The translations under genes were made by a program, and so were the position numbers. From assembly GCA_019744845.1 (NCBI GenBank), contig JAIETW010000001.1, positions 177,999 through 241,998 of the forward strand: a stretch of DNA of 64,000 nucleotides, in the 5' to 3' direction. The notes below the pieces were generated by a model. It was given only the letters and a program-made list of their open reading frames with translations, did not search any database and was not told the origin of the DNA. How positions within the stretch are numbered: the stretch's first letter is position 1; each line of letters opens with the position of its first letter. Shown here piece by piece: positions 1 to 37,671 of the stretch. Source of the stretch: Patescibacteria group bacterium (GTDB lineage Bacteria; Patescibacteriota; Minisyncoccia; Phycocordibacterales; Phycocordibacteraceae).

Positions 1-2506
1 CACGTTCGTACCACCAAGAAGAGTTTCAAGTTCTCCGATTGTATCTATCTCCGTCGCAAGAATGACATTCACTGAGCCGAGGAGTGTTTCAAGTTCACTG
101 GTGGAATCTATTTCTGTGGAGACGATAAGGTTCACGCCGGTGAGCGCCTCAAGTTCTGACACCGTATCAATTGAAGTCGTAGAAACTTTATTGTTGAACA
201 GACTCCAATCTGCAGACGCAAGGAATCCTGGCTGTGAACCGTTTGCCTTCTGACCATTTACGTAATCAAGAGAGACAAGTCCAGATGCTGCGTCAAAGTC
301 ATTTGCGGTAAAGGTGGCAGCGCCCTTAGTCGTACCGTCTGCTGCGGCGTTGTTGATTGAGACGGTGCCACCAGAGAACGAAAGCGGGGTAGCAAAAGTA
401 GTGCTTGCGGTCCACGTAGGAACGCCGTTAAGAAGTGCGAGCACCTGTCCGTTGGTTCCTGCTGTGGTGGTGGAAAGTGATCCTGTGCCATTTCCGTAGA
501 TGAGTGCGCCTGACTGAATGTTCGTCCATCCCGTACCTCCACGAGCAACCGTGAGTGTCCCTGTGGTGCCAGTGACAATCGGAAGTGCGCTTGCGTCTGA
601 AAGATCAAACGCAGGAGTTGCGTCTGATCCACCAAGTGAAAGCGTCACGCCACCAAATGAAATGCTGGAGTTCGTAAGTCCTGCATTGTTGAGCGTGCCC
701 GTGATGCTTGGTGAAAAGGTTTGCGTATTTCCTGATCCTACAATCGTCGTGCCGAGTGTAAGTCCATTGAAAGATCCTGTAGAAGTAGCGAAAGTAACGG
801 TTGGACCAGAAGAGGTTTGTCCTGTCGGACCAATTGCAGTTACACCGCCCGCTGAAAGTCCAAGCGAGGAAGTGGCGGTAAGCGTGTAGCCGCCGCTACT
901 GTTTCCCACAAGGAGCTGTCCGTAACTTGGTGCACTCGTCAGTCCTGTGCCGCCATAGAGCACTCCGATAGAAGACGTTGCAGACACTACCCCTGCGTTT
1001 GCCTGCAGTGGACCATTCAGACTTCCAACGGTGACTCCACCAGAGAATGTTTGTCCAGTAGTGAAGGTGTTTGCGGTGTACGTTTTTGGAATCGTTGAAG
1101 AACCGTGTATGAACGCCTGGACGGTACTTGCAAAGTCAGAGATCGTTGAGGCAAGCTGCGTTCCTGTTTGATTTGCACGAGCGAGGTAGTAGCTTCCCTC
1201 CTGTCCATCAAACGTTCCCGTCCAGTCTCCCGTCGTGTTGATGGTAAGAGCACCACCGACGTTTTGAAGTCCTGTACCGGTGAGGTCAGTGAAGGTTTCG
1301 CTGTTGAGGCCGAGTGCTGTGGTCGTTGCCTGCGTGAAGATACCAGTGGAGGGAGTGCTTGCACCGATTGGGGTGTTGTTGATCGTGCCACCAGAGATGG
1401 TGAGTGCGTCGGTCACTTGGCCGTCGGTGGCGGAGCCAGTGAGGTCCGTGAAGTTAAGCCCAAGAGAAGAAGTGGCGACCTGCGTCCATCCTGTACCACT
1501 TGAGTTACCTACCAAAAGTTGGTTTGCAGTGACTGAAGAGATTCCTGTACCTCCACGGCCGGACGCAAGTACTCCAGACCAGGTGGAGGTATACGTGTGA
1601 GTACTTCCGGAAGAGGTGATGGTAAGACCGATGTTCGTGTCCGAGGAGGTGGCGAAGGACTGAGACGTCGCGACAAGTCCGTTCAAAGAAGTGATTCCTG
1701 AACCACCGCCTCCGGTGAGACAGGAACCGTTGACGGAAATACAACCACCAGTGATTTCAATACCGTTGGCGAACGTAGAGGTGGCAGTGGTGCTGGTGAT
1801 AGTCAGTGCATTTGCTTCTACGTCTCCATCGGCATCTACCGTGAACACATCCGTGCCTGCAGAGTTCTGAATTCTAAAGAGCTTTGCAATCTGTCCAAGA
1901 ATGCCGCGAATGGAAATACCTGTACTTTGAGTTGAAGTTGCTTCTACTGAAACGACTGAGGTGCCAAAAGGACTCGTCGTACCAAACGAAGATGGAGTAG
2001 AGGATCCGCTCACCGATGCGGCCACACGTGCAAACGGTGTCGCGCTCACACGCTGACGTGGGGAGAGCGTTTGGAAGCTACTGTTGTCTGAAGATACTTC
2101 TACCTGAAGATAGACATCCGCATTGTTGGCGAAGTCGTAATCAAGCGCATGAGGGAATCCGTTTGCGGTGTCTCCGATCTGTGCGGTGAACACCCCAGCA
2201 CGAACAGTCACCGGAAATGAGGTTGGACCGCTCGCAGGCCATACCTGACTACCACTCCCAACCGTAGGGTTATTCCAAAGAGAAAACTTTACGTAGTACG
2301 TCGTACCAGTGCCACCCAAAAGGTTTCCACTCGCATCAGAGAGTCGGCCCTGGTATCCGATGATTGAGGGGACGGCGGCTGTTGCAGTCTGCGGCATGAA
2401 AAATCCCCCGAATACCGCGAGAAGGAGGAGCACCGCAACCTGCCGAGAAAGTGTGTGTGTGTTATAGAAAAAGGGTGCCCCCGCAAAAGCCTTCAAAACT
2501 CAGGAT
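1..2506 (-). CDS. Large secreted Thr/Ser/Gly-rich repetitive surface protein. It is partial: the C-terminus lies beyond the window start. The start is either TTG at 2506 or ATG at 2398.
   Basis: I translated the third minus-strand frame by hand from 2506 to position 1 without meeting a stop. The N-terminus reads as a signal peptide (K/A/F start, LLLLAVFGGFF hydrophobic core, ATAAVP cleavage-like site). The body is Thr/Ser/Gly-rich with recurring units such as LLVGNSSGTGWTQVATSSLGL, VARGGTGWTNIQSG and GQLLVGNSSGGYTLTATSSLGL. The last in-window residues carry three copies of EID(S/T)xxELE(T/A)LLGxxNVI. It is absent from the ORF track because no in-window stop exists. Confidence 0.55.
18..205. 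repeat. Three imperfect tandem copies of a ~63-bp unit inside the surface-protein gene, encoding the EIDxxxELExLLG repeat
   Basis: Direct reading: the unit tttcaagttc..g..g.atctat.tc....... recurs at about 22-84, 85-147 and 148-205, with conserved blocks caagttc and atctat. Confidence 0.55.
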
Positions 2507-2689
2507 CTGCCCTATCTATAATTATATATGGCTTTCTCGTATAAGCCTGGTGATATTTTCCTCAACTGGGGATACCGAAAGGGTGAATATGGCGTAACTA
2601 GGGGCTGTATTTCAGTTTCGTACAGAATATTTCATACTTTTTAAGACGCACTTGCTATTTTATGGTTTACGTTTCGTAATCTATTTACT

Positions 2690-3250
2690 TTATTCAGATA
2701 TGAGTTGTAAACGAAGTGCCTCTATGAGTTCCGGAAATTCCGTTTGTGGAAAAGTGCCATGTCCGAAGTGCGCGCGGTCAGTGTGTTCGTGGTAGACAGA
2801 TCCAAGCATGTCACGAATGTGTCGTGGCTCTTCAATCGGAATGAACGGATCGTCAGTAGATGCAAAAAGTATCGTCCATTGTTGATTCTTTTTTATTGCG
2901 TTCCAATTCCATGGGGTATCAAAGTACTGACTCGCCTTCTCCTCTTCGTAATTCATGTGCGTGTAGTACGCACCGACAAGTACTGATCCGAGAATTACAT
3001 TCTCTTCTGCATACCGCATCGCCGCGATTGCACCAGAAGAGTGCCCTATGAGAATCGTGTCTTCGTCTGCACCAAGTTCCTTTATGAAAGGAAGCCAGAA
3101 TTCTTTTCGCGCAAGTAGTGCATCTGGAAACTGCGTGTTAATCACCGAAATTCCAAGTTGAAGCGGTATTTCTTTTTCTAGGTACGGAGACCAGTTATCG
3201 GTCGGTGACCCCCCTCCATTTCCAGGAATAAGAATTACTTTTGTATTCAT
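2690..3250 (-). CDS. Alpha/beta-fold serine hydrolase of the YdeN/RBBP9-like family
   Basis: 186 aa. GHSSG nucleophile elbow, plus downstream D and H positions. Paralogous to the adjacent gene. Confidence 0.6.
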   Translation of the reverse strand: MNTKVILIPGNGGGSPTDNWSPYLEKEIPLQLGISVINTQFPDALLARKEFWLPFIKELGADEDTILIGHSSGAIAAMRYAEENVILGSVLVGAYYTHMNYEEEKASQYFDTPWNWNAIKKNQQWTILFASTDDPFIPIEEPRHIRDMLGSVYHEHTDRAHFGHGTFPQTEFPELIEALRLQLISE

Positions 3251-3792
3251 ACTCCCATCTGCTCTAGCGCCTCAAGTGCCTGCGGGAGTTCTGTCCACCC
3301 GTCATGTGAGCCAAGGTGTCCACCTTCATGAATCACCGTCAGTGTGCCGCTCAGTTCTTTCTCTAACATCTTTGCATCCTCAAGCGGTACAAGGTGATCA
3401 TTGTCGCTGTGAATGATTGCTACTTTTTCTACACGCTGCCGTATGGTGGCGTAGTTAAAGGGTATTATGAAGAAGTTATCTATCTTCGTATTCCCTGTTG
3501 CGTTGCAGGGACCAGATACCAACACCACTCCAGCTATCTTTACTGATGCTGTTTCCAAATATCTGAGAATCGCCGTCACACCAAGACTGTGTCCCACGAG
3601 ATATATCTCATCTCCTTCTGTGATATGTCGTGCAATCTCGTCTACCCATTCATGTTCAATAGGTTGATCTGGAGTTGGCATGACGAGTGCTGCCGCGTAC
3701 ACATCTCTTAGATCAAGCTCAGTCATGAGCCACGGACGCCATCCACCGTTCGGGGAGCCCTCAAGTCCATGGATAAGAAATACTTTCTTCAT
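3247..3792 (-). CDS. Alpha/beta-fold serine hydrolase (YdeN/RBBP9-like), a tandem paralogue
   Basis: 181 aa. GHSLG nucleophile elbow. Four-nucleotide overlap with the downstream paralogue. Confidence 0.6.
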   Translation of the reverse strand: MKKVFLIHGLEGSPNGGWRPWLMTELDLRDVYAAALVMPTPDQPIEHEWVDEIARHITEGDEIYLVGHSLGVTAILRYLETASVKIAGVVLVSGPCNATGNTKIDNFFIIPFNYATIRQRVEKVAIIHSDNDHLVPLEDAKMLEKELSGTLTVIHEGGHLGSHDGWTELPQALEALEQMGV

Positions 3793-3797
3793 GCCTC

Positions 3798-6491
3798 TTA
3801 TTCTACACGTACCGTAAAGCGAGGGTTAATTACCTTCCCTTCGTGGAAGAATTCGCCGAAGACCGTGTAAAGACCAGGACTTGGAAAGAGCACGTGCGCT
3901 TCTACCACGGGACCGAAGGTTGGTGGAGGCGGTAGGTGCGTGTGTGCGGTCGTAGAAGATACTTGAGTGACTGGTGCACCAAGTGGATGCACTTCTCCAT
4001 GGGTGTGTATGAACTCAGAGAGATCGTTCTTCACCACCGCAAGGTGCATCGCAGCAGCCAAGTATGGCTCCATGTTCAGTACATCCTCTCCGTCTTTAGT
4101 AATGCGGTAGGTGAGTGTGGTGTAGGAGTTTGCGAGCGGCAGCGGGGAGCGGAGAGTGACATCGTATCCATCAAAGCTTCCTTCCGAAGGATAGGTGGCA
4201 ATGTCATTCATCGCTGCATTCCCTTTTACGGTAATCGTGTACGTACGACTCTCCTGCTTCAGTCCATGCGCATAATCAATCGCAAGGATGTAGGTACCGG
4301 CACGTGGAAAGGTGAAGCTCCGTTCAAAGCGAGGAGCATTTGATTCATCATCAGGGTGCACGTGGAAGAATTCTTTCATATCTGCACTCACAATCACCAT
4401 ATGCACGAGCTTCTCGTGTATGACTGAGAGCACGGCAGGCTCTCCATCTGCGTCATTAATCGTGTATTCAAAGGTCACGGGAACTCCTGCAGTGATATTC
4501 GTGAGGTCGTTTGCGAATGCAATCTCTGATCCTGTCTGGGACTTCAGATACCGATACTCTCTCGCATCAGAGATGTGGAAGGAACCACCGAGCGCCATAC
4601 ACCCTTCCTCTGCGACTGAGGACACCGGAATGCCGTTACGTGCAGGAAGCATGACGTGCCAGCCATTCCCGTCTGCCAGACATTCCTTCTTGAATGAGTT
4701 CCCAAAGAGGTACTGGAGTGCCCCGATTATTTGGCTCAGGATTAACAGAGTGACAATGAATGCAATTCCATACCTGAAGACTGAATTACGCTCCTGTAGC
4801 GGCGGATATGGGCCTCTAACGAGCCTTGCAAGGTATATAGCGGCAATGATGCTAAGAATTGCGAGCGCCATCATCACCAGGGTGAAGAGATCTATGTCTC
4901 TTCCCTCGTCTTTAATGAAATCTGCCTTGGTGACGGTAAATGTTGCCCGTGCATCGTAGCCACTTTCCTGGGGCTGGATAACGGAGAGTGTGTGCGTGCC
5001 ATTGGTGATGAGAGCAAGAGGGAATACGTATCCCCCATCATATCTGCGCTCAAGCTCTAGAAGCGTTCCCTCTTCGCTTCCACCGTCTAGAGAGACGGTC
5101 GGCATGACCTTCCCTTCACTTGTAAGGAGTACCTTCTCATCCTCATGTGGTGCAGGCGCGACCGCGATCTCTATTCCCTGGTCGCGTACCGAGTATGCTG
5201 GCTGCATGCCATGCAGTGGTGGTGAGGTGATGATCATGAGTGAGGAGAAGAAGATCACCAGCACTCCTGAAGCGAACTCTGCGGGCAAGGTGTAAGACAG
5301 GAACTTACTGAACCACTGCGGACGGTATCGGTGCGCGATGAGGTGATACGCAAGAAGTGCAATTGCGACTATGAGGGATGCAGCAAGCGGAAGGAATCGC
5401 TCTCCCCAGAGAGTCGTGGAGATATTGGCAAAGTCTTTCAAGTGAAGCCAGATGATGTAAGCGCCGGTAACTCCTGCAAGACCGAAGGAAAGCGCGAGGA
5501 GTGAGAACGCTCGTGGGAATACGTCTCGGAGCTTCTCTCTGAAGGTTCTCCAGAGATACGCGACGGAGAGAATGCCGATGATTCCCTCCCACAAATCTTT
5601 TCCAATGAGATGGAATACGTTTACGAGTACACCAAGATCAGGAAGGAAGCTGCTTGCGGTCGCGTGACTTACCTTTGCGCGGTAGTACGCAAAGACAAGA
5701 AGAAGTGCAAAAAGAATCCATTCAGAGGTCGTGAACTTCTCTGCAAGCTGTATCACCTTCTTCCGGAAGAAGAACACGACTCCAATCAATGCTCCTGCGA
5801 TCATTCTGATTACCGTTGCTGATCCTGAGACTATCGCGAAGTAGAGCGAAAGCGCTTCCGCAAATGGAATCTGATTTAGATCTGCCAGTTCACTCGTTTT
5901 TAGAATGATGTGTCCCCCGCCACCAATGAGAATGAGAAGGACGCCAAGTGCAATGAAGAACGCGTACCCCTTCCGTACCAGTGCATCCTCTCGGTACTTT
6001 CTGAATACAGAGGCAAAGAGCACAATCACTCCCCATAGAATGGAGTTCCCAAGAAGCTCCACGAATATCATGAACGCCTCTGGTACTGCAGAGATCTGCA
6101 CCACCTCAAAGGAAGAAGAGTTAGAGGAAGGAATGGCAATGCCTTCTCCTATCACATACGCATATCCTCCCTTGGTGAAGTGTCCGTCGTCAGAAGACAC
6201 CACACTCCACGAGACAAAGTACGCACCGTCTTCTGCCGATGCTACTGGCACACTGAGTACATAGGGATTCTCTTCTACGACTGCCTCTCCAGTCGTGATC
6301 TCTGTCCCTGCATCGTCTTTTACCTGTATACGACTTGCCCCTGGCTCTACTCGCTCACTGAAGCGAATAGATACTTCGGTGGGCGCTTCGATGAGTACCG
6401 CGGAAGACTCTGGCACATACTCCACGGGAGTGGCGTGTGCAGACACGCCAAGCGGGAGGAGAATGATGAGTGTGATAAGTAGTGTTTTCAT
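3798..6491 (-). CDS. Copper transport/resistance fusion protein CopC-CopD with a C-terminal YtkA-like domain (YcnJ-like architecture)
   Basis: 897 aa. Signal peptide, then a CopC-like beta-sandwich whose mature N-terminus is H (SAHATPVEY) and which carries the VSWSVVSSDDGHFTKGGYAYVIG motif. This is followed by about 8 transmembrane helices (CopD-like). The C-terminal soluble His-rich region carries FFHVHPDDE and EFIHTHGEVHP. Confidence 0.6.
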   Translation of the reverse strand: MKTLLITLIILLPLGVSAHATPVEYVPESSAVLIEAPTEVSIRFSERVEPGASRIQVKDDAGTEITTGEAVVEENPYVLSVPVASAEDGAYFVSWSVVSSDDGHFTKGGYAYVIGEGIAIPSSNSSSFEVVQISAVPEAFMIFVELLGNSILWGVIVLFASVFRKYREDALVRKGYAFFIALGVLLILIGGGGHIILKTSELADLNQIPFAEALSLYFAIVSGSATVIRMIAGALIGVVFFFRKKVIQLAEKFTTSEWILFALLLVFAYYRAKVSHATASSFLPDLGVLVNVFHLIGKDLWEGIIGILSVAYLWRTFREKLRDVFPRAFSLLALSFGLAGVTGAYIIWLHLKDFANISTTLWGERFLPLAASLIVAIALLAYHLIAHRYRPQWFSKFLSYTLPAEFASGVLVIFFSSLMIITSPPLHGMQPAYSVRDQGIEIAVAPAPHEDEKVLLTSEGKVMPTVSLDGGSEEGTLLELERRYDGGYVFPLALITNGTHTLSVIQPQESGYDARATFTVTKADFIKDEGRDIDLFTLVMMALAILSIIAAIYLARLVRGPYPPLQERNSVFRYGIAFIVTLLILSQIIGALQYLFGNSFKKECLADGNGWHVMLPARNGIPVSSVAEEGCMALGGSFHISDAREYRYLKSQTGSEIAFANDLTNITAGVPVTFEYTINDADGEPAVLSVIHEKLVHMVIVSADMKEFFHVHPDDESNAPRFERSFTFPRAGTYILAIDYAHGLKQESRTYTITVKGNAAMNDIATYPSEGSFDGYDVTLRSPLPLANSYTTLTYRITKDGEDVLNMEPYLAAAMHLAVVKNDLSEFIHTHGEVHPLGAPVTQVSSTTAHTHLPPPPTFGPVVEAHVLFPSPGLYTVFGEFFHEGKVINPRFTVRVE

Positions 6492-7556: not shown

Positions 7557-8462
7557 TCAAGTTTTCTTCTTGGCGACGCGGTGTTTCCCTACGAACTTCC
7601 CTTTCTCCTTGCGTTCTTTGAAGGTCATGGTCACCTTATGCTTTGCCATCTCAGTCTCTACGATTGCTCGCTCCTTGTCTTTGTTCTTTACTCTCTGCTT
7701 TGCCTCTTTCACATACTGAGGAGAGATATCTATACCGAAGAAGTGGTGTCCGAGGAGTGCGGCCGCAACTGCAGTTGTACCGTGTCCAAGATATGGGTCT
7801 ACCACCAGCTTCCCTTTGGTGCTTCCGAGTATGGAGTAGATGCAGCGAGTTGGCAGAGTGAGTGGGAATGGGGCTGGGTGTGTGTTGTTTCGCTCTGGGG
7901 GCATGCGCCAGACAGAGGTCAGCAGTGCATGACGTGATTCAAGCTCTTCTCCGATCTTCTTGTCTCCCTTTGGCTTATAGAGCCAGTAGATGCGCTCCTC
8001 TACCTGCCAGAAGCGCCATCCTCTGATGTTTGCAGCAATGCCGCGATCCCAGATAATCTCCTGTCTGATGGTCCAGTCCGTCTTGGCGAGCCAGGAAATA
8101 GGATGAAGCATCACTCCCCGCTCCCAGCGGGTCTTGTGGTTATAAAAGAAGGAGCCACCTGCTTTGGTGGTACGGAAGAGTTCATTCAGTACCGCGATCT
8201 GATTCTCCTGGTATTCCTCTTCCGTCTTCGTATCTCGTGCGGTGTCGTACACCACATTCTTTACGAGCCATCCCTTCTTATTCTCCTGCTTGTTGTATGG
8301 CGGAGAGGTCACTCCCACATCAAAGGTATTGTCCGGCACCTTCTTGAGTGTGGTGAGAGTGTCGCCGACTAGGATGGAATCGTTAAGCTTTTGCATGGAG
8401 ATAGTCGTAGAGCGGTTTGCTGATGTAGGGCTTGTTCGCTTCAATATCGCTCTTTTGTGCAA
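7557..8462 (-). CDS. Beta-class amino-DNA methyltransferase (N4-cytosine or N6-adenine); the true start is probably the internal Met near 8396
   Basis: Motif IV SPPY (DVGVTSPPYN) precedes the C-terminal motif I (VVDPYLGHGTTAVAA), which is beta-class order. The SPPY variant favours m4C. The annotated N-terminus would overlap the upstream gene by 80 nt, so Met23 (MQKLNDSILVGD) is the more likely start. Confidence 0.7.
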   Translation of the reverse strand: MHKRAILKRTSPTSANRSTTISMQKLNDSILVGDTLTTLKKVPDNTFDVGVTSPPYNKQENKKGWLVKNVVYDTARDTKTEEEYQENQIAVLNELFRTTKAGGSFFYNHKTRWERGVMLHPISWLAKTDWTIRQEIIWDRGIAANIRGWRFWQVEERIYWLYKPKGDKKIGEELESRHALLTSVWRMPPERNNTHPAPFPLTLPTRCIYSILGSTKGKLVVDPYLGHGTTAVAAALLGHHFFGIDISPQYVKEAKQRVKNKDKERAIVETEMAKHKVTMTFKERKEKGKFVGKHRVAKKKT

Positions 8463-9066
8463 TAAATTCCACTTTTAGGGCTGCATCATCCTTGTAGTCC
8501 TTGAAACATACGCGGGCACCGCGTAGATACTGGCTTGGTGCAGCACCATTGGGGAATCGCTTGGTGAGCTGAGTTTCTAGAGACGTAATGATTCCTGGAC
8601 TATTGAATGGGATGGAGAGAATGAAGATGAGCTTTCCATCTACAAAGCCACTCATGAGCATGGTGGGATTCTCTCGCTTATCCTTCTCAAAGCGTGCGAG
8701 TGTGTAGTCGTTCACACTTCCTCCGGCGTCTAAAAGTGCGGGTTTGGTCTTTCGTGTTCCCTCCTTGTATGCCTTCACGTCAGCAGAGCGAATGTTTCGG
8801 GGCTTTGCTTCGCATTCCTTGGTTATTCCGTTCTCCGTCTTCACTCCGTCAAAACCGATCTTCCCATCGCTATGTGTGTATCCTGCGACTGATACGGTTA
8901 CGAACTCACGGATGGTGGAAGAGTTCCTATCGTTTGCGTATGCAGAGAGGAGGTCTTGTATGAGAAGCGCTGCCTCGGTGTTTGATAAGGAAGCCAGGTG
9001 TTTAGTGAGATCAGCAGTGTTCCCTGTGGAGAAGAGGGTGATGAGGGATGCGAGGGAGGGGTTCAT
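8383..9066 (-). CDS. Hypothetical protein; by position a candidate cognate restriction endonuclease of the adjacent amino-methyltransferase
   Basis: 227 aa. No recognisable catalytic motif by eye. Tightly linked upstream of the methyltransferase in the same orientation. Confidence 0.3.
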   Translation of the reverse strand: MNPSLASLITLFSTGNTADLTKHLASLSNTEAALLIQDLLSAYANDRNSSTIREFVTVSVAGYTHSDGKIGFDGVKTENGITKECEAKPRNIRSADVKAYKEGTRKTKPALLDAGGSVNDYTLARFEKDKRENPTMLMSGFVDGKLIFILSIPFNSPGIITSLETQLTKRFPNGAAPSQYLRGARVCFKDYKDDAALKVEFIAQKSDIEANKPYISKPLYDYLHAKA

Positions 9067-9148
9067 GATCTGAACAGTTTACTTTGTCATAATCTGTACT
9101 CCAAGCCAAAGATTAATTATCTGCTTTGAGGAAGTTACGACGCGCTGC

Positions 9149-10192
9149 TTATTTTTCGGAGTTTAATATTACTTGACCAAGCTGTTTAGCAAACAAGGGT
9201 GGAACGGCATTACCAATCATTCTGGCCACATTTTCAGTGGTGTTTGAATAAAATACATATTTTTTTGGAAAAGTTTGAAGTGTTGCCCCCTCTCTTAGTG
9301 AAATTGCTCTATTCTCAACTGGGTGAGCAAACCTCCCATTAGAGATGCTGAAAAATCTTGTTGTTATGGTTGGAGCAGGTTTATTCCAGGACATTCTTCC
9401 ATAATTATCCTTGAAGCCCTCTCCTCTATAAGTTTTCCTTTTAAGATTTTTATTCTTTGCCCAATCTAGCCATGATCCACCATTTTTTGGTGTTTGTTTT
9501 AATCTATTTAAATTTTTTTCACTCAGTCCTGCAACACTATGATTGAAAAAAGTTTTATCCTTGTGTCCAGGTTTTACTCTAGCAAAACCATTTTCAACAC
9601 CAATGACATCTTTAACTAGCCGTTTTTTAGCGACCTTCTTTTTGAGAGAAATTTTATTTTTTGAAACCCTTGTGGCTATGAGGGAAAATCGCTTTCTCGA
9701 TTGAGGCACGCCATAATCACTCATATTTACTATCTCGCAGTGAACTGCGTATCCTTTTTCTTCAAGACTTAAGACAAATTTATCCAGACCGCTTTTCTTC
9801 CTATTACTCAAGATACCAGGAACATTTTCAACTAAAACATAACCAGGTTTAAAATAATCAACGAATCTCTTAAATTCAATTAGAAGATTTTTTGATTTCT
9901 CAGATTTCTTTTTGTCAGTTCTTATAACTGACCAAAACTGACAAGGACTGCATCCAATCAATATAAGATTCTTATCATTCTTCTTTATTCCGATCTTCTT
10001 TTGTAAATCTTTTTCTTTTAACTTAAAAACGTCAGCGAGTATAAACCTTGATCCTGGATTATTTTTCTCGTATGTATCTTGACACGTTGGATCACTATCT
10101 ATACCAGCAATAACATTAATACCAGCCTGTCTAAGTCCGCATGTCATTCCACCGCCAGAACAAAAGAAGTCAACGGCTTGAATCTTAGCCAT
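9149..10192 (-). CDS. dcm: DNA (cytosine-5)-methyltransferase
   Basis: Motif I FCSGGGMTCG, catalytic motif IV GCSPCQ(F)WS, motif VI LVENVPG. AT-rich relative to flanking DNA. Confidence 0.8.
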   Translation of the reverse strand: MAKIQAVDFFCSGGGMTCGLRQAGINVIAGIDSDPTCQDTYEKNNPGSRFILADVFKLKEKDLQKKIGIKKNDKNLILIGCSPCQFWSVIRTDKKKSEKSKNLLIEFKRFVDYFKPGYVLVENVPGILSNRKKSGLDKFVLSLEEKGYAVHCEIVNMSDYGVPQSRKRFSLIATRVSKNKISLKKKVAKKRLVKDVIGVENGFARVKPGHKDKTFFNHSVAGLSEKNLNRLKQTPKNGGSWLDWAKNKNLKRKTYRGEGFKDNYGRMSWNKPAPTITTRFFSISNGRFAHPVENRAISLREGATLQTFPKKYVFYSNTTENVARMIGNAVPPLFAKQLGQVILNSEK

Positions 10193-10230
10193 AAGTTAGA
10201 TAACAAATTCTAACATAAGTAAACTGCAAC

Positions 10231-12252
10231 TTATGACTCATTCTCTTCTATACTAAACGATAGTACATAATTATTTCTGTCACTCTCTGGAAAACGGAGT
10301 TGCGGCCACCAAACTTCTTCGCCGTGCTTATTAGTTTGTCTATATAAGAATAAAGTAGGTTTATCAGAAGGTGCTAAATTTATTTCACCTCCAGATAAAA
10401 TACCGCTGTTCTCTCCACGACCTGGAGCAATCTCTCTTCCTCTGCGTACAACCAGGTACGCTTGATCTCCCATTAAACCCTCAATCATTTCCAAGGCTGT
10501 TCTTATGTTCTTAATATTCCACAGCAAAGAATCAGTCGCAGGTTCTATATGACATAGTTCCAGAATTGAAATCAAATCTTTGATTGTTGTAGCTACTGCT
10601 GCTTCATCATTGCCAATATGCTGTAATCGCTCATCAATAGTTTTCGTCACTTCTCTCATTTCTGGAGTTCTAAGTGGATACGATGGATTTATGCTTTTAC
10701 CCGCGACGTAAGCAACGAGAGACTCGGGATCTAATACGTTTCTTCTTGTGGCCTGTAAGGGGGAAGCTATGTAAAGAATCTCAAACTTCCCTTCAGGATA
10801 TTTTTCAACCACATCTCTAAGAGCACTTTCCATATTGTGAATAAGTGAAAAATGTCCAGCTAATTTTCTAGGCAAAAATAGACGCGTAACGCCAAGATCA
10901 TCTTGGCGATAGCCATACATACGAGCGTGCTGGAGAACTGTATCTGCGTTAGGTTTTTTTGGATTTCTCCCGTAGTAACTGACAAGTAAGTTTTTTATTG
11001 TGACGCCTCTACCTAGTTTATTTCCTCCTACAAAAATGTTATATGCTGCATCTAATTCCACTTCGTCACCTGAGACGGAGTTTATTAACTTCACTCTTGC
11101 ACCATGGAGATAGAACTTCATTCTCTCTAGAACCTCAGAAAATGGTGGCAGTCCAAACTGAGTTGTCTCTAAATCCTTATATGCTGCTTCAAGTTCTGAA
11201 ATAAAATTTACATACTGCTTTGACGTAGGGCTCTCAAGTATACGAAATACATCCTCCTTGAAAGATTCAATCAAAGAACATATGTGACTATGGTCAACTT
11301 TGCTGCTACTTACATGACATAGAAATGCATAGCCTTTCACAGGATTCTCAATTCTTTTACAAGTTGCACCGACTAAAAAGGTTACTAGTGCACTTCTTAA
11401 ACCTTTTGGTATTGATCCTGTGGGTGAAGGTTGATGCGATGAAGTAAGCTGTTCTACTTCTTCAATGTCTACAAAACGAAGAAGTTTATCGTCTTTATCG
11501 CCAAAAAATTTATCTCCACCAACATAACCGTTTCCTGGTTCACTAAGAATTGTAAAAGACGGACGATATCTATTATCTGGATTCTGCAAGAAAAGAGCTT
11601 GAGGAGTTGCAGTTACCTGCAGATAAGTTGTAGTTCTGAAAAAATTCCGGAAGTCACTTATAACTTGATTAATTGTACTAGGTAGTTTGCCAGTCTTTTT
11701 TGCTTTGGAAGTATTTGTATTAAGACTTGCCTGGTCTGCCTCGTCGTCAATAATCAAGGCCGAAAGACCTCTTGCGCCAGCTTTTTTGAACTCTTCCAAT
11801 AAACCACTCAATACTGTTCCATTTTTTGAGCAAACAAGAACTACCGGCGGATTACGTAAATCTCGTGCAAACCTCTTTGGATCAGCCCAGTCCGTCTTTC
11901 CAAGAACACTCAATCCTTGTAATACAGACTTCATTCGCTTAAGTGTTTGTCCGTAAAGTATTTCGTTGTCTGAAGTAAGAATTACTACACATTGAAATCC
12001 ATTATCTGCTGCCATTGCAGTAGTAACCTGTATGACACTTGTTTTTCCACTCTGAATAAGTCCATATACTAAGCCATCACTTGGATGCTCTGGAGCTTCA
12101 GCAATAGGATCAACACATCTTCGCAAGATCTGTGTTGCCTTCTCCGTGAGGGCAACAAGCGCTGCTCCTTCAATATCATTTGACAGAACATTCAAGACTT
12201 CTTTTGTATGCAGTCCATCTTGGATGATTTCTCTTGTGTTGCAGTTAATCAT
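10231..12252 (-). CDS. P-loop ATPase with a DEAD-type Walker B, Z1-domain-like (SF2-helicase-related); putative defence or restriction component
   Basis: 673 aa. Walker A GLIQSGKTSV, Walker B LIIDDEADQAS, and a later GGNKLGRGVT (helicase motif VI-like arginine finger). AT-rich. In an operon with the C5-methyltransferase and overlapping the upstream small ORF by 4 nt. Confidence 0.5.
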   Translation of the reverse strand: MINCNTREIIQDGLHTKEVLNVLSNDIEGAALVALTEKATQILRRCVDPIAEAPEHPSDGLVYGLIQSGKTSVIQVTTAMAADNGFQCVVILTSDNEILYGQTLKRMKSVLQGLSVLGKTDWADPKRFARDLRNPPVVLVCSKNGTVLSGLLEEFKKAGARGLSALIIDDEADQASLNTNTSKAKKTGKLPSTINQVISDFRNFFRTTTYLQVTATPQALFLQNPDNRYRPSFTILSEPGNGYVGGDKFFGDKDDKLLRFVDIEEVEQLTSSHQPSPTGSIPKGLRSALVTFLVGATCKRIENPVKGYAFLCHVSSSKVDHSHICSLIESFKEDVFRILESPTSKQYVNFISELEAAYKDLETTQFGLPPFSEVLERMKFYLHGARVKLINSVSGDEVELDAAYNIFVGGNKLGRGVTIKNLLVSYYGRNPKKPNADTVLQHARMYGYRQDDLGVTRLFLPRKLAGHFSLIHNMESALRDVVEKYPEGKFEILYIASPLQATRRNVLDPESLVAYVAGKSINPSYPLRTPEMREVTKTIDERLQHIGNDEAAVATTIKDLISILELCHIEPATDSLLWNIKNIRTALEMIEGLMGDQAYLVVRRGREIAPGRGENSGILSGGEINLAPSDKPTLFLYRQTNKHGEEVWWPQLRFPESDRNNYVLSFSIEENES

Positions 12253-12710: not shown

Positions 12711-12755
12711 TTTTCTGTGATCTGACCCAGCTCACAGAAGATAGGTTTAGTTGGG

Positions 12756-12826
12756 CTGGGAGACTAGGAATCGAACCTAGATTCACGGCTTCAAAGGCCG
12801 CTGTCCTACCGTTAGACGATCTCCCA
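12756..12826 (-). tRNA. tRNA-Gln (anticodon UUG)
   Basis: Cloverleaf folded by hand. Acceptor UGGGAGA/UCUCCCA (U1-A72, as in bacterial tRNA-Gln). Anticodon stem GCGGC/GCCGU with loop CUUUGAA. T-arm CUAGG-UUCGAUU-CCUAG. Discriminator G. CCA is not encoded. Confidence 0.85.
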
Positions 12827-12855
12827 ATATCTACATCCTGCCCTGGAGGGGCCTG

Positions 12856-36759: not shown

Positions 36760-36831
36760 CGAAAACACCGGCCCGGTGGCGAAGTGGTAACGCTGGAGTC
36801 TGCAAAACTCCCATGCGCGGGTTCAATTCCC
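36760..36831 (+). tRNA. tRNA-Cys (anticodon GCA)
   Basis: Acceptor GGCCCGG/CCGGGCC. Anticodon stem GGAGU/ACUCC with loop CUGCAAA. Discriminator U. Confidence 0.85.
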
Positions 36832-36858
36832 GCCCGGGCCTCAAAATGTGGTATCGTC

Positions 36859-36951
36859 TCCGACAGATGCCGAGGTGATGGAATTGGTAGACATACAGGG
36901 CTTAAAACCCTGAGAAGGAATAAATCCCTTCGTGTGGGTTCGATTCCCACC
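36859..36951 (+). tRNA. tRNA-Leu (anticodon UAA), type II, with encoded CCA
   Basis: Acceptor GCCGAGG/CCUCGGC. Anticodon stem CAGGG/CCCUG with loop CUUAAAA. 21-nt variable arm. A-CCA at the 3' end. Confidence 0.8.
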
Positions 36952-37006
36952 CTCGGCACCAAAAACGGTTGAATAAATAGGAGAGGTCATATACTATTTA
37001 GCCCAA

Positions 37007-37079
37007 GCGCCCATAGCTCAGTTGGTAGAGCAGATCCCTCTTAAGGATAAGGTCCCAGGTTCGAGCCCTGGTGGGCGCA
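37007..37079 (+). tRNA. tRNA-Lys (anticodon CUU)
   Basis: Acceptor GCGCCCA/UGGGCGC. D-arm UAGCUCAGUUGGUAGAGC. Anticodon loop CUCUUAA. T-arm CCAGG-UUCGAGC-CCUGG. Confidence 0.8.
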
Positions 37080-37127
37080 CAGAAGTGTGCGGACAAATGA
37101 GAACAAATAGTGTACTCTCTTAGTCAC

Positions 37128-37209
37128 GCCGGGGTGGTGAAATTGGTATACACGCCTGCCTTAGGAGCAGGTACCGCAAGGTGTGGAGGTTCGAGTCCTC
37201 TCCCCGGCA
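37128..37209 (+). tRNA. tRNA-Leu (anticodon UAG), type II
   Basis: Acceptor GCCGGGG/CCCCGGC. Anticodon stem CCUGC/GCAGG with loop CUUAGGA. Long variable arm. Confidence 0.8.
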
Positions 37210-37671
37210 CTAAAAATCAGCAATGACGAGCTTCGTCATTCCCATCATTTTCTTGAAGGCTCCCGGCTTCTTGATAAGCGCTTCCCAGTTCTCTGGCACT
37301 ACCTGCCAGCTGAGTCCGTACTTGTCCTTAAGCCAGCCACAGACACTTTCCTGACCACCGTTAGACGTCAGTGTATTCCAGTAGTAATCAATCTCTTCCT
37401 GATCTTTACAGGAAATCATAAGTGAGATTGCTTCGTTAAATTTGAACTCCGGCCCTGCGTTAATCGCAATGTAGCGCATGCCCAAAATCTCAAACTCAAT
37501 CGTGAGCACCTCCCCTGCCAAATCCTTTTGAAAATCTGCAAGACCTTCCTCTTCACTGTTGGGGTAATAGTACGTTGAAATTATCTTCCCTCCTGGAAAG
37601 ACACTGAGATAGTAATCCACCGCGTCTTTGGCGTTTCCATCAAACCACAAATTGGGAATGATCCTTTGCAT
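37210..37671 (-). CDS. VOC-superfamily (glyoxalase/PhnB-like) protein
   Basis: IIPNLWFDGNAKDAVDYY N-terminus, typical of PhnB-like VOC proteins. Confidence 0.55.
   Translation of the reverse strand: MQRIIPNLWFDGNAKDAVDYYLSVFPGGKIISTYYYPNSEEEGLADFQKDLAGEVLTIEFEILGMRYIAINAGPEFKFNEAISLMISCKDQEEIDYYWNTLTSNGGQESVCGWLKDKYGLSWQVVPENWEALIKKPGAFKKMMGMTKLVIADF

What the first reader, a model, noticed from the sequence alone, without database searches (positions are those of the whole stretch)
1..2506. Giant repetitive secreted surface protein with 63-bp in-frame tandem DNA repeats, truncated by the window edge
An uninterrupted minus-strand reading frame of more than 830 codons begins with a signal peptide and is dominated by Thr/Ser/Gly with recurring ~45-aa units (e.g. 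GGTG(I/W)..LLVGNSSG...TATSSLGL), reminiscent of beta-helical or fibre-like adhesins and tail-fibre-like proteins. The first ~200 bp of the window hold three near-identical 63-bp repeats coding EIDxxxELExLLGxxNVI. Such repeats are prone to slipped-strand copy-number variation, giving length or phase variation of a surface structure. The gene is invisible in the ORF track because it has no in-window stop.
Basis: seen in the sequence. Interest (0 to 1): 0.55.

Follow-up and report, generated by a model that had tools for sequence, protein, structure and literature searches.

The report
Secreted fibre protein of a Patescibacterium
This is the first 832 codons of a large secreted fibre protein from a common but uncharacterised family in ultrasmall Patescibacteria; its "63-bp repeats" are old, diverged structural repeats and not a slippage hot spot, although a short (AC)n tract at the start of the gene does differ in length between samples.

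Summary
The reading frame is real. It is an 832-codon open minus-strand frame (window 2496..1) that runs off the window. It has a Sec-type signal peptide and 43% Thr+Gly+Ser.

The repeat claim is overstated:
- Tandem Repeats Finder finds nothing.
- The three units (spacing 60 and 63 nt) are 44-67% identical in DNA, with a longest shared run of 11 nt.
- They are copies of a widespread 21-residue protein repeat, consensus EIDTxAELEALxGGVNIIxST.
- The closest relative with this region (L007) has the same three units in the same order, each closer to its counterpart than to its neighbours. The array is therefore old and its copy number is conserved.

The protein belongs to a large mosaic family confined to Patescibacteria. 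It has an N-terminal beta-sandwich domain followed by Thr/Ser/Gly-rich fibre modules. Some complete relatives (1,064-2,480 aa) carry a phage-tail-fibre-type Peptidase_S74 chaperone domain. In MAGs, 61 of 80 relatives are cut off downstream, nearly all by contig ends. Adhesion is inferred, not shown.

One unexpected observation: an (AC)6 tract at 2451-2462, unique in the 64 kb, lies between the called TTG start and the signal-peptide core. It is (AC)5 in an otherwise identical contig from another sample. This is a possible contingency switch, and its effect is unresolved.

The parts
1..2496 (-). Open reading frame of the fibre protein. It covers 832 codons from the TTG at 2496-2494 and its 3' part lies beyond base 1 of the window.
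   Evidence: Translation. The gene caller on identical Logan contigs L001 and L002 starts at the same TTG. P(open by chance) is about 1e-15.
2451..2462 (-). (AC)6 dinucleotide tract ((GT)6 on the + strand). It lies between the candidate TTG starts and the signal-peptide core and encodes N-T-H-T in the called frame. It differs in length between samples.
   Evidence: It is the only dinucleotide tract of 5 or more units in the 64 kb. Dinucleotide-preserving shuffles give 0.01 expected. L001 and L002 carry (AC)6; L003 carries (AC)5 and is otherwise 100% identical over 1.7 kb.
2377..2496 (-). Predicted Sec signal peptide, aa 1-40: n-region with K2 and R18, hydrophobic core aa 20-33, then ATA|A. Alternative starts are TTG 2486 (in frame only with (AC)5) and GTG 2433.
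   Evidence: Hydropathy. AF2 helix 13-30. Alignment with homologues' signal peptides. Start candidates.
2002..2376 (-). Conserved N-terminal beta-sandwich domain, aa 41-165 (VPSIIGYQGRL ... LSPRQRVSATPFA). It is the signature domain of this Patescibacteria family.
   Evidence: pLDDT 89-98 and all-beta. 21 close homologues. 292 relatives in GTDB genomes; the 80 kept are labelled as Patescibacteria lineages or only as 'bacterium'. Foldseek gives only weak matches to Ig-like sandwiches, none with E <= 1e-3.
1342..1668 (-). Fibre module copy 1, aa 277-385. It includes RGGTGISSVTANQLLVGNSSGTGWTQVATSSLGL.
   Evidence: Internal similarity to aa 474-589 at 42-48% identity. Motif positions.
730..1077 (-). 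Fibre module copy 2, aa 474-589. It includes YGGTGLTSAPSYGQLLVGNSSGGYTLTATSSLGL.
   Evidence: The same module recurs many times in homologues P0001, P0002, P0004 and P0008.
397..555 (-). Divergent third GGTG module, aa 648-700 (ARGGTGWTNIQSGALIYGNGTGSL...NGQVLALLNGVPTW).
   Evidence: 28-31% identity to copy 1. The same variant occurs in P0008 and P0017.
178..330 (-). Widespread module, aa 723-773 (GAATFTANDFDAASGLVSLDYVNG...PGFLASADWSLFNNK). It precedes the 21-aa repeats.
   Evidence: The last 110 aa (which include this module) give 1,663 representative proteins at E <= 1e-3, 567 at E <= 1e-10, and up to 24 matched stretches per protein. Most best-scoring stretches fall on this module.
115..174 (-). 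Repeat unit 1 (20 aa): SIDTVSELEALTGVNLIVST.
   Evidence: Its counterpart in L007 is 82% identical in protein.
52..114 (-). Repeat unit 2 (21 aa): EIDSTSELETLLGSVNVILAT.
   Evidence: Its counterpart in L007 is 94% identical in protein but only 61% in DNA.
1..51 (-). Repeat unit 3 (first 17 aa, cut by the window edge): EIDTIGELETLLGGTNV.
   Evidence: Its counterpart in L007 is 76% identical. In L007 it is followed by a degenerate fourth unit, DIDTSAEVAGIVGDETGSGALVFG, and then more fibre.

Best explanation
The feature is the 5' two-thirds or less of a gene for a large, Sec-exported, modular fibre protein of a Patescibacteria (CPR; probably Paceibacteria-type) bacterium.

**Architecture**
- A signal peptide directs export.
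- A conserved, family-specific beta-sandwich domain forms the mature N-terminus.
- The rest is a mosaic of Thr/Ser/Gly-rich modules (GGTG...SSLGL, DWTGTFDGQEGSYY, STIPKTYT..., FLSSADWxxFNNK) and a short array of 21-residue EIDTxxELExLxGxxNxIxxT repeats.
- These modules are shuffled among hundreds of related CPR proteins.

**Inferred from relatives, not shown here**
- The missing C-terminal part extends the protein to roughly 1,000-3,000 aa.
- It may end in a Peptidase_S74 intramolecular-chaperone domain. In phage tail fibres and spikes that domain drives trimerisation and then cleaves itself off.
- On this reading the protein is an extended, probably trimeric, cell-surface fibre that these host-dependent cells use to bind a partner cell or a surface.

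**The 21-aa repeats**
They are structural elements kept by purifying selection and are not a variable-number tract. Any rapid on/off or N-terminal variation would come from the (AC)n tract at the 5' end. Its effect is not established.
For: **Shown**
- Open frame and composition.
- Signal peptide conserved in position across about 50 homologues.
- 195 homologues, nearly all labelled Patescibacteria, Parcubacteria or Paceibacterota. 22 of the 120 listed carry PF13884.
- The N-domain model is confident at pLDDT 89-98.
- 292 relatives of the N-domain occur in GTDB genomes. None of the 80 kept is labelled as another phylum.
- Complete relatives with the same N-domain carry Peptidase_S74: P0017 (1,375 aa), P0037 (1,064 aa) and L052 (2,480 aa, closed chromosome).
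- The flank is chromosomal, not phage: two serine hydrolases, a CopC-domain protein, a methyltransferase island, dnaX and tRNAs.
- The window protein has no PHROG hit.
- The pattern-based IMG/VR search found no relative of the N-domain.
- The last 110 aa have no tblastn match in GenBank phages.
- The repeat units are old: counterpart units in L007 are more similar than neighbouring units in the window, and W2-L2 is 94% identical in protein at 61% DNA identity.
- The repeat consensus is shared by unrelated proteins with 3-16 units.

**Inferred**
- Trimeric fibre. This rests on the established role of Peptidase_S74 in endosialidase and tail-fibre assembly.
- Adhesive role. This rests on the episymbiotic lifestyle of cultivated Patescibacteria (abstract of PMC12206443, seen).
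Against: - The C-terminus is outside the window, so neither the Peptidase_S74 domain nor any anchor can be checked in this gene.
- Many complete relatives (L047, L070, L075) show no S74 hit or were not scanned.
- No Pfam, NCBIfam, PHROG or PDB sequence match exists for the in-window part.
- The AF2 monomer model is below pLDDT 50 over aa 250-830, so the fibre or beta-helix fold is unverified.
- No experiment links any member of this family to adhesion. It could equally be an envelope or S-layer-like structural protein.
- The start codon is uncertain. There is no ATG upstream of the signal-peptide core, and this genome shows no Shine-Dalgarno motifs to judge by.
Confidence: 0.7

Rival explanations
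1. The gene is a contingency locus. Slipped-strand changes in the length of the (AC)n tract at 2451-2462 switch or alter expression of the fibre. They would do this either by moving the signal-peptide region in and out of frame with the upstream start codon, or by changing the 5' leader. This rivals only the 'no rapid variation' part of the best explanation and is compatible with the rest.
For: - (AC)6 is the only dinucleotide tract of 5 or more units in the 64 kb. Shuffles give 0.01 expected.
- It sits inside the called coding region, 11 codons after the TTG at 2496 and before the hydrophobic core.
- Contig L003, from another run of the same series, carries (AC)5 and has no other difference over 1,718 nt. 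L001 and L002 carry (AC)6.
- In L003 the gene caller falls back to the ATG at 2397, which gives a protein without a signal peptide.
- In the third frame state, a TAA immediately before the tract closes the upstream frame.
Against: - Only one variant contig was seen, and no read-level data are available.
- With (AC)5 another TTG (2486) comes into frame and yields an equally plausible signal peptide (MRGHPFSITHTLSRQVAVLLLL...). Two of the three frame states may therefore be 'on'.
- The GTG at 2433, downstream of the tract, is in frame in every state. If it is the real start, the tract is merely 5' leader.
- Six units is short for a classical phase-variation tract.
- The tract is not a family trait. 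Among the 80 related loci, one has (AC)5, and it lies far from the gene.
- Homopolymers near relatives' starts occur in 17 of 80 loci against about 5.7 expected. This is plausibly a by-product of Lys/Phe codons in signal peptides.
Confidence: 0.3
2. One reading: the 63-bp units are near-identical tandem DNA repeats whose copy number changes by slipped-strand mispairing, giving length or phase variation of the surface structure.
For: - Three in-frame units with 60-63-nt spacing exist at the window edge.
- More units could lie beyond base 1.
- Arrays of 3 to 16 units in other proteins show that copy number has changed over long evolutionary times.
Against: - TRF finds no repeat.
- Units are 44-67% identical in DNA, with exact shared runs of 8-11 nt.
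- Unit-specific residues and the number and order of units are conserved in L007.
- By homology with L007, the array ends one degenerate unit after the window edge.
- 63 is a multiple of 3, so copy changes could not cause on/off phase variation in any case.
Confidence: 0.04
3. It is a phage or prophage tail-fibre gene and not a cellular surface protein.
For: - Family members carry Peptidase_S74, and some are named 'tail fiber domain-containing protein'.
- The 21-aa repeat also occurs in P0241, which has a Phage_cement_2 domain.
- The DNA on the far side of the gene is unseen.
Against: - The protein has an N-terminal Sec signal peptide, which virion fibres do not need.
- The visible flank is housekeeping or chromosomal.
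- There is no PHROG hit.
- The pattern-based IMG/VR search found no relative of the N-domain.
- There is no tblastn hit in 50,697 phage records.
- Relatives sit among core genes such as mreB, mreC, pbp2, topA and dprA.
Confidence: 0.05

Closest known systems
Patescibacteria 'tail fiber domain-containing protein' / hypothetical fibre proteins (for example P0008 from Candidatus Parcubacteria, P0017, P0003 from Candidatus Taylorbacteria, and the 2,480-aa gene in closed MAG chromosome OY970290.1)
   Same: They share the signal peptide, the N-terminal beta-sandwich domain (45-78% identity) and the pool of fibre modules (GGTG...SSLGL, STIPKTYT, DWTGTFDGQEGSYY). They come from the same phylum and are likewise truncated at contig ends.
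   Different: The order and number of modules differ in every member. Here the C-terminus is unseen, so the S74 domain is unknown. The three-unit 21-aa array is shared only with L007 among the 80 loci. No member has been studied experimentally, as far as the searched literature shows.
Phage tail fibres and spikes with a C-terminal Peptidase_S74 intramolecular chaperone (endosialidase type)
   Same: Both are Thr/Ser/Gly-rich modular stalks. The S74 domain is present in relatives that share this protein's N-domain. The likely working principle is a trimeric fibre with a distal binding part.
   Different: This protein has a Sec signal peptide and a chromosomal context. It has no PHROG or phage-database match. 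The N-terminus is a secreted beta-sandwich, not a virion-attachment domain. S74 is not observable in this gene.
Hypervariable PTD-repeat surface protein gene of a Gracilibacterium (PMC6851277)
   Same: Both are CPR extracellular repeat proteins whose genes fragment short-read assemblies. In both, DNA varies while the repeat's amino acids are conserved (compare W2-L2 at 94% aa and 61% nt).
   Different: That case is a perfect 9-nt/tripeptide microsatellite-like array with cell-to-cell heterogeneity. Here the repeats are 21-aa, diverged and few, and their number is conserved between species.
Simple-sequence contingency loci of host-adapted bacteria (established knowledge: homopolymer or short-unit tracts in the 5' coding region or promoter of surface-protein genes, as in Neisseria, Haemophilus and Campylobacter)
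   Same: A short tandem tract lies in the 5' end of a surface-protein gene, and its length differs between otherwise identical sequences.
   Different: There are only 5-6 units. The frame consequence is ambiguous because alternative TTG and GTG starts exist. The switch is not shown to alter expression. The searched literature holds no report of simple-sequence-repeat phase variation in CPR bacteria (four papers hold both terms; titles and abstracts seen, plus the term passages of PMC6851277).

Membership tests
Patescibacteria secreted fibre family (defined here by the N-terminal YQGRL beta-sandwich domain) | Signal peptide followed directly by the conserved domain (V/T)PxI(I/L)xYQGRLxDxxGNLLGG...YLQVEVS...LSPRQR | tested here: met
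   45-69% identity to 18 members in alignment A4, with 15 invariant columns. tblastn relatives in 292 genome stretches. pLDDT 89-98.
Patescibacteria secreted fibre family | Thr/Ser/Gly-rich stalk built from the shared module pool (GGTG...SSLGL and others) | tested here: met
   phmmer gives 363 domain matches to 141 family proteins, covering query aa 1-790. Modules are visible in P0001-P0017.
Peptidase_S74 (endosialidase-chaperone) tail-fibre/spike proteins | C-terminal PF13884 intramolecular chaperone domain | not testable with these tools
   The C-terminus lies beyond the window. The contig could not be extended: two exact-match scans found nothing, and the Logan contigs end inside the gene. 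The domain is present in relatives P0017, P0037, P0008 and L052.
Peptidase_S74 tail-fibre/spike proteins | Homotrimeric fibre or beta-helix fold | tested here: inconclusive
   The AF2 monomer model is below pLDDT 50 over aa 250-830. No multimer prediction was available. Foldseek against PDB and BFVD gives no hit with E <= 1e-3.
Pfam phage tail-fibre repeats and other curated repeat families (for example Phage_fiber_2, LRR, DUF5907) | A match to the family HMM | tested here: not met
   hmmscan of the 832 aa against Pfam-A at E <= 1 gives 0 families. NCBIfam and PHROGs also give 0. DUF5907 hits only relatives P0021 and P0142, below the cut-off.
Variable-number tandem repeat / slipped-strand locus (the 63-bp units) | Head-to-tail DNA copies similar enough to mispair (near-identical) | tested here: not met
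   TRF reports 0 rows. Identity is 44-67% and the longest shared run is 11 nt.
Variable-number tandem repeat / slipped-strand locus (the 63-bp units) | Copy number differs between close relatives or within a population | tested here: not met
   L007 has the same three units in the same order, with unit-specific residues. Within-population data are not available.
Simple-sequence contingency locus (the (AC)n tract) | Short-unit tract in the 5' coding region or promoter of a surface-protein gene, rarer than chance | tested here: met
   (AC)6 lies at 2451-2462. It is the only such tract in the 64 kb, and shuffles give 0.01 expected.
Simple-sequence contingency locus (the (AC)n tract) | Tract length polymorphic among otherwise identical genomes | tested here: met
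   L003 carries (AC)5. The window, L001 and L002 carry (AC)6. There are no other differences. Only one variant contig was seen, and reads were not examined.
Simple-sequence contingency locus (the (AC)n tract) | Length change switches expression or the reading frame | tested here: inconclusive
   The frame relative to TTG 2496 is lost in (AC)5, but TTG 2486 then comes into frame. GTG 2433 is unaffected in all states. The true start is unknown.

The most novel reading that the evidence does not exclude
The (AC)n tract is a working contingency switch. By slipping between 5, 6 and 7 units, a Patescibacteria population turns export of this host-contact fibre on and off, or swaps its signal-peptide N-terminus. 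This would be the first simple-sequence phase variation described in the CPR, acting on a candidate host-attachment structure.
Probability: 0.2. Interest if true: 0.65.

Novelty: new member of a known kind. Interest (0 to 1): 0.35.

Why it matters
As it stands, this is one more member of a very common, unstudied Patescibacteria fibre family, and the flagged repeats are not a variation mechanism. Three points have some wider use.

1. **Candidate host-contact structure.** The family is abundant, specific to Patescibacteria, secreted, and related to phage tail fibres. That makes it a reasonable candidate for the host-contact structures of these obligate symbionts, alongside the type IV pili studied so far. 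Because 61 of 80 genes are cut off downstream, nearly all by contig ends, it is systematically under-described in MAGs.
2. **An unmodelled repeat.** The 21-residue EIDTxAELEALxGGVNIIxST repeat and the preceding FLSSADWxxFNNK module are widespread: the last 110 aa, which span both, match 1,663 representative proteins. Neither is covered by any Pfam, NCBIfam or PHROG model.
3. **A testable variation lead.** The (AC)5/(AC)6 difference between otherwise identical contigs is a cheap lead for population-level variation of a CPR surface protein. It can be tested at read level.

Tried and rejected
**Extending the contig**
- Exact 60-mer scans of genome contigs and metagenome contigs found nothing.
- The look-up of encoding contigs with two neighbouring proteins returned only Logan contigs that stop inside the gene, at window 1396 or 2127. 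A 20-50-kb contig on record was never shown.

**Searches that found nothing or failed**
- Pfam, NCBIfam, PHROGs and PDB sequence searches of the protein gave no hits.
- The search for related loci with the 91-sequence alignment failed because it had no conserved stretch. It was redone with the N-domain alignment.
- The family-wide Pfam scan of A3 exceeded the size limit.
- The afdb50 fold library was unavailable.

**Structure**
- The full-length AF2 model is informative only for the N-domain.
- The single-sequence model of the 16-unit repeat protein P0182 has pLDDT 44. It shows only an alternating helix and short-strand pattern and no reliable fold.
- Foldseek against PDB and BFVD gave no hit with E <= 1e-3.

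**Ideas considered and dropped**
- LRR-like reading of the 21-aa unit (LxxLxGxxNxI): there is no HMM support and position 6 is Gly, so it remains only a resemblance.
- An internal repeat as the cause of the assembly break at 1396: no shared k-mer of 14 nt or more exists within the window.
- Simple-sequence tracts near the start as a family trait: the only signal is A8/T8 runs in 17 of 80 loci, plausibly from Lys/Phe codons.
- Ranking start codons by Shine-Dalgarno: this genome shows none at 34 of 34 starts.
- P0121 and P0124, short complete proteins of 276 and 230 aa with the N-domain: examined, and they gave no help with the start or the repeats.
Full report
**1. The observation**

Translation of the minus strand shows one frame open from the stop just upstream of window 2496 to base 1. 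That is 832 codons from the TTG at 2496. For this base composition the chance of such an open frame is about 1e-15. The ORF listing does not show it because it runs off the window. Composition is Thr 16.3%, Gly 14.1% and Ser 12.7%.

The N-terminus is MKAFAGAPFFYNTHTLSRQVAVLLLLAVFGGFFMPQTATAA|VPSIIGYQGRL. It has a hydrophobic core (mean hydropathy 2.8) and an AxA site. It aligns with the signal peptides of about 50 homologues, which all end just before the conserved (V/T)PxI(I/L)xYQGRL motif. These parts of the finding are confirmed.

**2. The '63-bp repeats'**

- Tandem Repeats Finder at its lowest threshold reports nothing in 1-4000.
- The three units start at window 174, 114 and 51, so the spacing is 60 and 63 nt.
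- In register they are 44%, 49% and 67% identical in DNA. The longest exact shared runs are 8-11 nt. The repeat finder sees only 21-23-nt cores at 74-81%.
- They are therefore not near-identical and are poor substrates for slipped-strand mispairing. Because 63 is a multiple of three, copy changes could not switch the frame anyway.

At the protein level the units are real. A full HMMER scan with the last 110 aa found 1,663 representative proteins at E <= 1e-3. Several have 3-16 tandem units (P0159, P0182, P0179, P0241, P0218, P0270). Thirty-three units give the consensus EIDTEAELEALMGGVNIIVST, and the window units fit it at every conserved position.

Locus L007 has an N-domain 74% identical to this one. 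It carries the same three units in the same order with the same unit-specific residues:
- Counterpart pairs are 82%, 94% and 76% identical in protein.
- Neighbouring units within the window are 47-71% identical.
- The W2-L2 pair is 94% identical in protein but only 61% in DNA.

The array therefore predates the split of the two species, is under purifying selection, and has kept its copy number. In L007 it ends with a degenerate fourth unit (DIDTSAEVAGIVGDETGSGALVFG), after which the stalk continues. That is the best guess for what lies just beyond base 1.

**3. Other internal repeats**

The GGTG...LLVGNSSG...SSLGL motif occurs twice in good form, at aa 315-348 and 515-548. These lie inside a duplicated segment, aa 277-385 against 474-589, at 42-48% identity. 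A divergent third copy lies near aa 653. These are dispersed modules and not a 45-aa periodic array.

**4. What the protein is**

No Pfam, NCBIfam, PHROG or PDB sequence match exists for the 832 aa.

A search of 5.8 billion proteins gave 195 homologues. Nearly all named ones are from Patescibacteria, Parcubacteria, Paceibacterota or their candidate phyla, and most are marked 'partial'. Precomputed Pfam hits among the 120 listed are:
- 22 with PF13884 (Peptidase_S74, 'chaperone of endosialidase'), some named 'tail fiber domain-containing protein'
- 8 with an N-terminal HTH_17 domain
- 4 with Gly_rich_2
- 4 with a bacterial surface Ig-like domain

The sequences show a mosaic of the same modules in different orders and numbers.

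The N-terminal domain (aa 41-165) has 21 close homologues. It also has 292 tblastn-confirmed relatives in the GTDB species genomes. The 80 kept are from MAGs labelled Paceibacteria, Taylor-, Nomura-, Zambryski-, Giovannoni-, Niyogi-, Harrison- or Lloydbacteria and similar lineages, or only 'bacterium'.

AF2 with a 91-sequence alignment models the signal-peptide helix and this domain confidently (pLDDT 89-98, all-beta), plus a small beta element at aa 200-235. Everything after about aa 250 is below pLDDT 50. Foldseek finds only weak similarity to Ig-like sandwich domains in PDB, and nothing in BFVD with E <= 1e-3. The beta-helix or fibre fold is therefore untested. A low-confidence monomer model is what one would expect for an obligate trimer, but that is not evidence.

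**5. Size and the missing end**

Of the 80 related genes, 61 run off the fetched locus, almost always because the contig ends 1-2 kb after the N-domain. Several apparent stops are scaffold gaps. Complete genes from long contigs are 1,623 aa (L070), 2,012 (L075), 2,385 (L047) and 2,480 (L052, a closed chromosome). L042 and L077 exceed 2,850 aa.

L052, P0017 (1,375 aa) and P0037 (1,064 aa) share this N-domain and carry Peptidase_S74 near the C-terminus. L070 does not. The protein here is therefore large but not giant, and whether it has an S74 domain cannot be decided.

**6. Cellular or viral?**

- The visible flank holds two serine hydrolases, a 897-aa CopC-domain protein, a low-GC methyltransferase/Z1 island, a metalloprotease, dnaX and nine tRNAs.
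- Relatives lie next to mreB-mreC-pbp2 or topA-dprA.
- The pattern-based scan of IMG/VR found no relative of the N-domain.
- The last 110 aa have no tblastn hit in 50,697 phage records.
- The protein has a signal peptide.

It is a cellular, exported protein that shares building blocks with phage fibres. One bearer of the 21-aa repeat, P0241, has a Phage_cement_2 domain.

**7. An unexpected site of variation**

Three Logan contigs from runs SRR15085116, SRR15085126 and SRR15085122 carry the neighbouring hydrolase gene.

L001 and L002 are identical to the window and both end at window 1396, inside the gene. No repeat of 14 nt or more within the window explains this break.

L003 is identical to the window from 3846 to 2127 except for a 2-nt deletion in a dinucleotide tract: TATA(AC)6TTTC in the window, L001 and L002, against TATA(AC)5TTTC in L003. 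This tract (window 2451-2462) is the only dinucleotide run of 5 or more units in the 64 kb. Dinucleotide-preserving shuffles give 0.01 per window. It lies 11 codons after the called TTG start and just before the hydrophobic core.

The consequence is ambiguous:
- With (AC)6, TTG 2496 is in frame.
- With (AC)5, a second TTG (2486) comes into frame and gives MRGHPFSITHTLSRQVAVLLLL..., an equally plausible signal peptide.
- In the third frame state, a TAA directly before the tract closes the upstream frame.
- GTG 2433, downstream of the tract, is in frame in all states.
- In L003 the gene caller chose the ATG at 2397, which would remove the signal peptide.

This genome gives no Shine-Dalgarno guidance. 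None of 34 gene starts has an SD core, against 2.6 expected. Seventeen of the 34 have a -10-like hexamer within 25 nt upstream, against 6.9 +/- 2.1 expected, which suggests short or absent leaders.

The tract is not a family trait. I rate a real polymorphism as likely and a functional switch as possible, at about 0.2-0.3.

**8. Comparison with known systems**

- The closest relatives are uncharacterised Patescibacteria fibre proteins. I found no paper on them in the searchable library.
- In working principle, the nearest characterised systems are phage tail fibres and spikes with the S74 intramolecular chaperone. Membership of that group cannot be tested here.
- The closest precedent inside the CPR is the Gracilibacteria PTD-repeat surface protein, whose gene fragments assemblies and varies in DNA but not in protein (PMC6851277). 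That is a perfect microsatellite-like array, unlike this one.
- Cultivated Patescibacteria are obligate episymbionts whose known attachment devices are type IV pili (abstract of PMC12206443, seen). An adhesive role for this fibre is an inference from lifestyle and architecture only.

**9. Verdict**

The finding is a real gene, and it was correctly sensed as a secreted, repetitive, tail-fibre-like surface protein. The headline feature, near-identical 63-bp repeats driving slippage, is not there. It is an ordinary new member of a widespread, poorly annotated family. The lead worth following is the (AC)n length difference at the 5' end. Interest is 0.35.

Noticed in passing
window 2451-2462 (minus strand (AC)6); L003:1385-1394: This is the only dinucleotide tract in the window. 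It lies between the called TTG start and the signal-peptide core of the fibre gene. It is (AC)5 in one otherwise identical Logan contig from another run, and (AC)6 in two others.
   Followed up: partly
window 1396 and 2127: Independent Logan assemblies end inside the gene: L001 and L002 both end at 1396, and L003 ends at 2127. No repeat of 14 nt or more within the window explains the break at 1396. Possible causes are paralogous modules elsewhere in the genome or strain variants.
   Followed up: partly
window-wide: 25 nt upstream of 34 gene starts: No Shine-Dalgarno core occurs at any of 34 starts, against 2.6 expected. A -10-like TAN[AT]NT box lies within 25 nt upstream of 17 of the 34, against 6.9 expected. 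This suggests mostly leaderless or very short-leader mRNAs in this genome.
   Followed up: partly
window 7557-12252 (minus strand): A low-GC island (0.39-0.43, against about 0.51 elsewhere) holds an N6/N4 DNA methylase, an unassigned 227-aa ORF, a C-5 cytosine methylase and a 673-aa Z1-domain protein. It is probably a horizontally acquired restriction-modification or defence module, next to tRNA-Gln at 12752-12827.
   Followed up: no
window 3798-6491 (minus strand): A 897-aa protein has an N-terminal CopC domain and no other Pfam match. It lies two genes from the fibre gene and is followed by two tandem Ser_hydrolase paralogues (3247-3792 and 2690-3250).
   Followed up: no
proteins P0159, P0182, P0179, P0241, P0218, P0270; window 1-174: The 21-residue repeat EIDTxAELEALxGGVNIIxST occurs in arrays of 3-16 units in otherwise unrelated secreted proteins. 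One has a Phage_cement_2 domain. No Pfam model matches these proteins' arrays, and only weak PHROG hits touch them. The fold is unresolved: the single-sequence AF2 model has pLDDT 44 and shows an alternating helix and short-strand pattern.
   Followed up: partly
homologues P0012, P0025, P0035, P0042, P0057, P0064, P0091, P0099; P0012 checked: Some family members replace the signal peptide with an N-terminal HTH_17 DNA-binding domain, followed by a long linker and then the same fibre modules. This explains the PGAP name 'helix-turn-helix domain-containing protein'. It is an odd architecture for an extracellular fibre.
   Followed up: no
loci L006-L085: 61 of 80 related genes in GTDB MAGs run off the end of the fetched locus, almost always a contig end 1-2 kb after the N-domain. 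Long-read MAGs give 1,489 to over 2,900 aa. The family is systematically truncated in short-read assemblies.
   Followed up: yes
L004:6001-6693 and L005:6001-6831: Short complete proteins (230 and 276 aa) consist of the signal peptide, the N-domain and a short tail. They lie among core genes (topA/dprA; mreB/mreC/pbp2). They are either stand-alone versions of the domain or decayed fibre genes.
   Followed up: partly
window 36770-37210: A cluster of four tRNA genes (Cys, Leu-taa, Lys, Leu-tag) lies within 450 nt.
   Followed up: no
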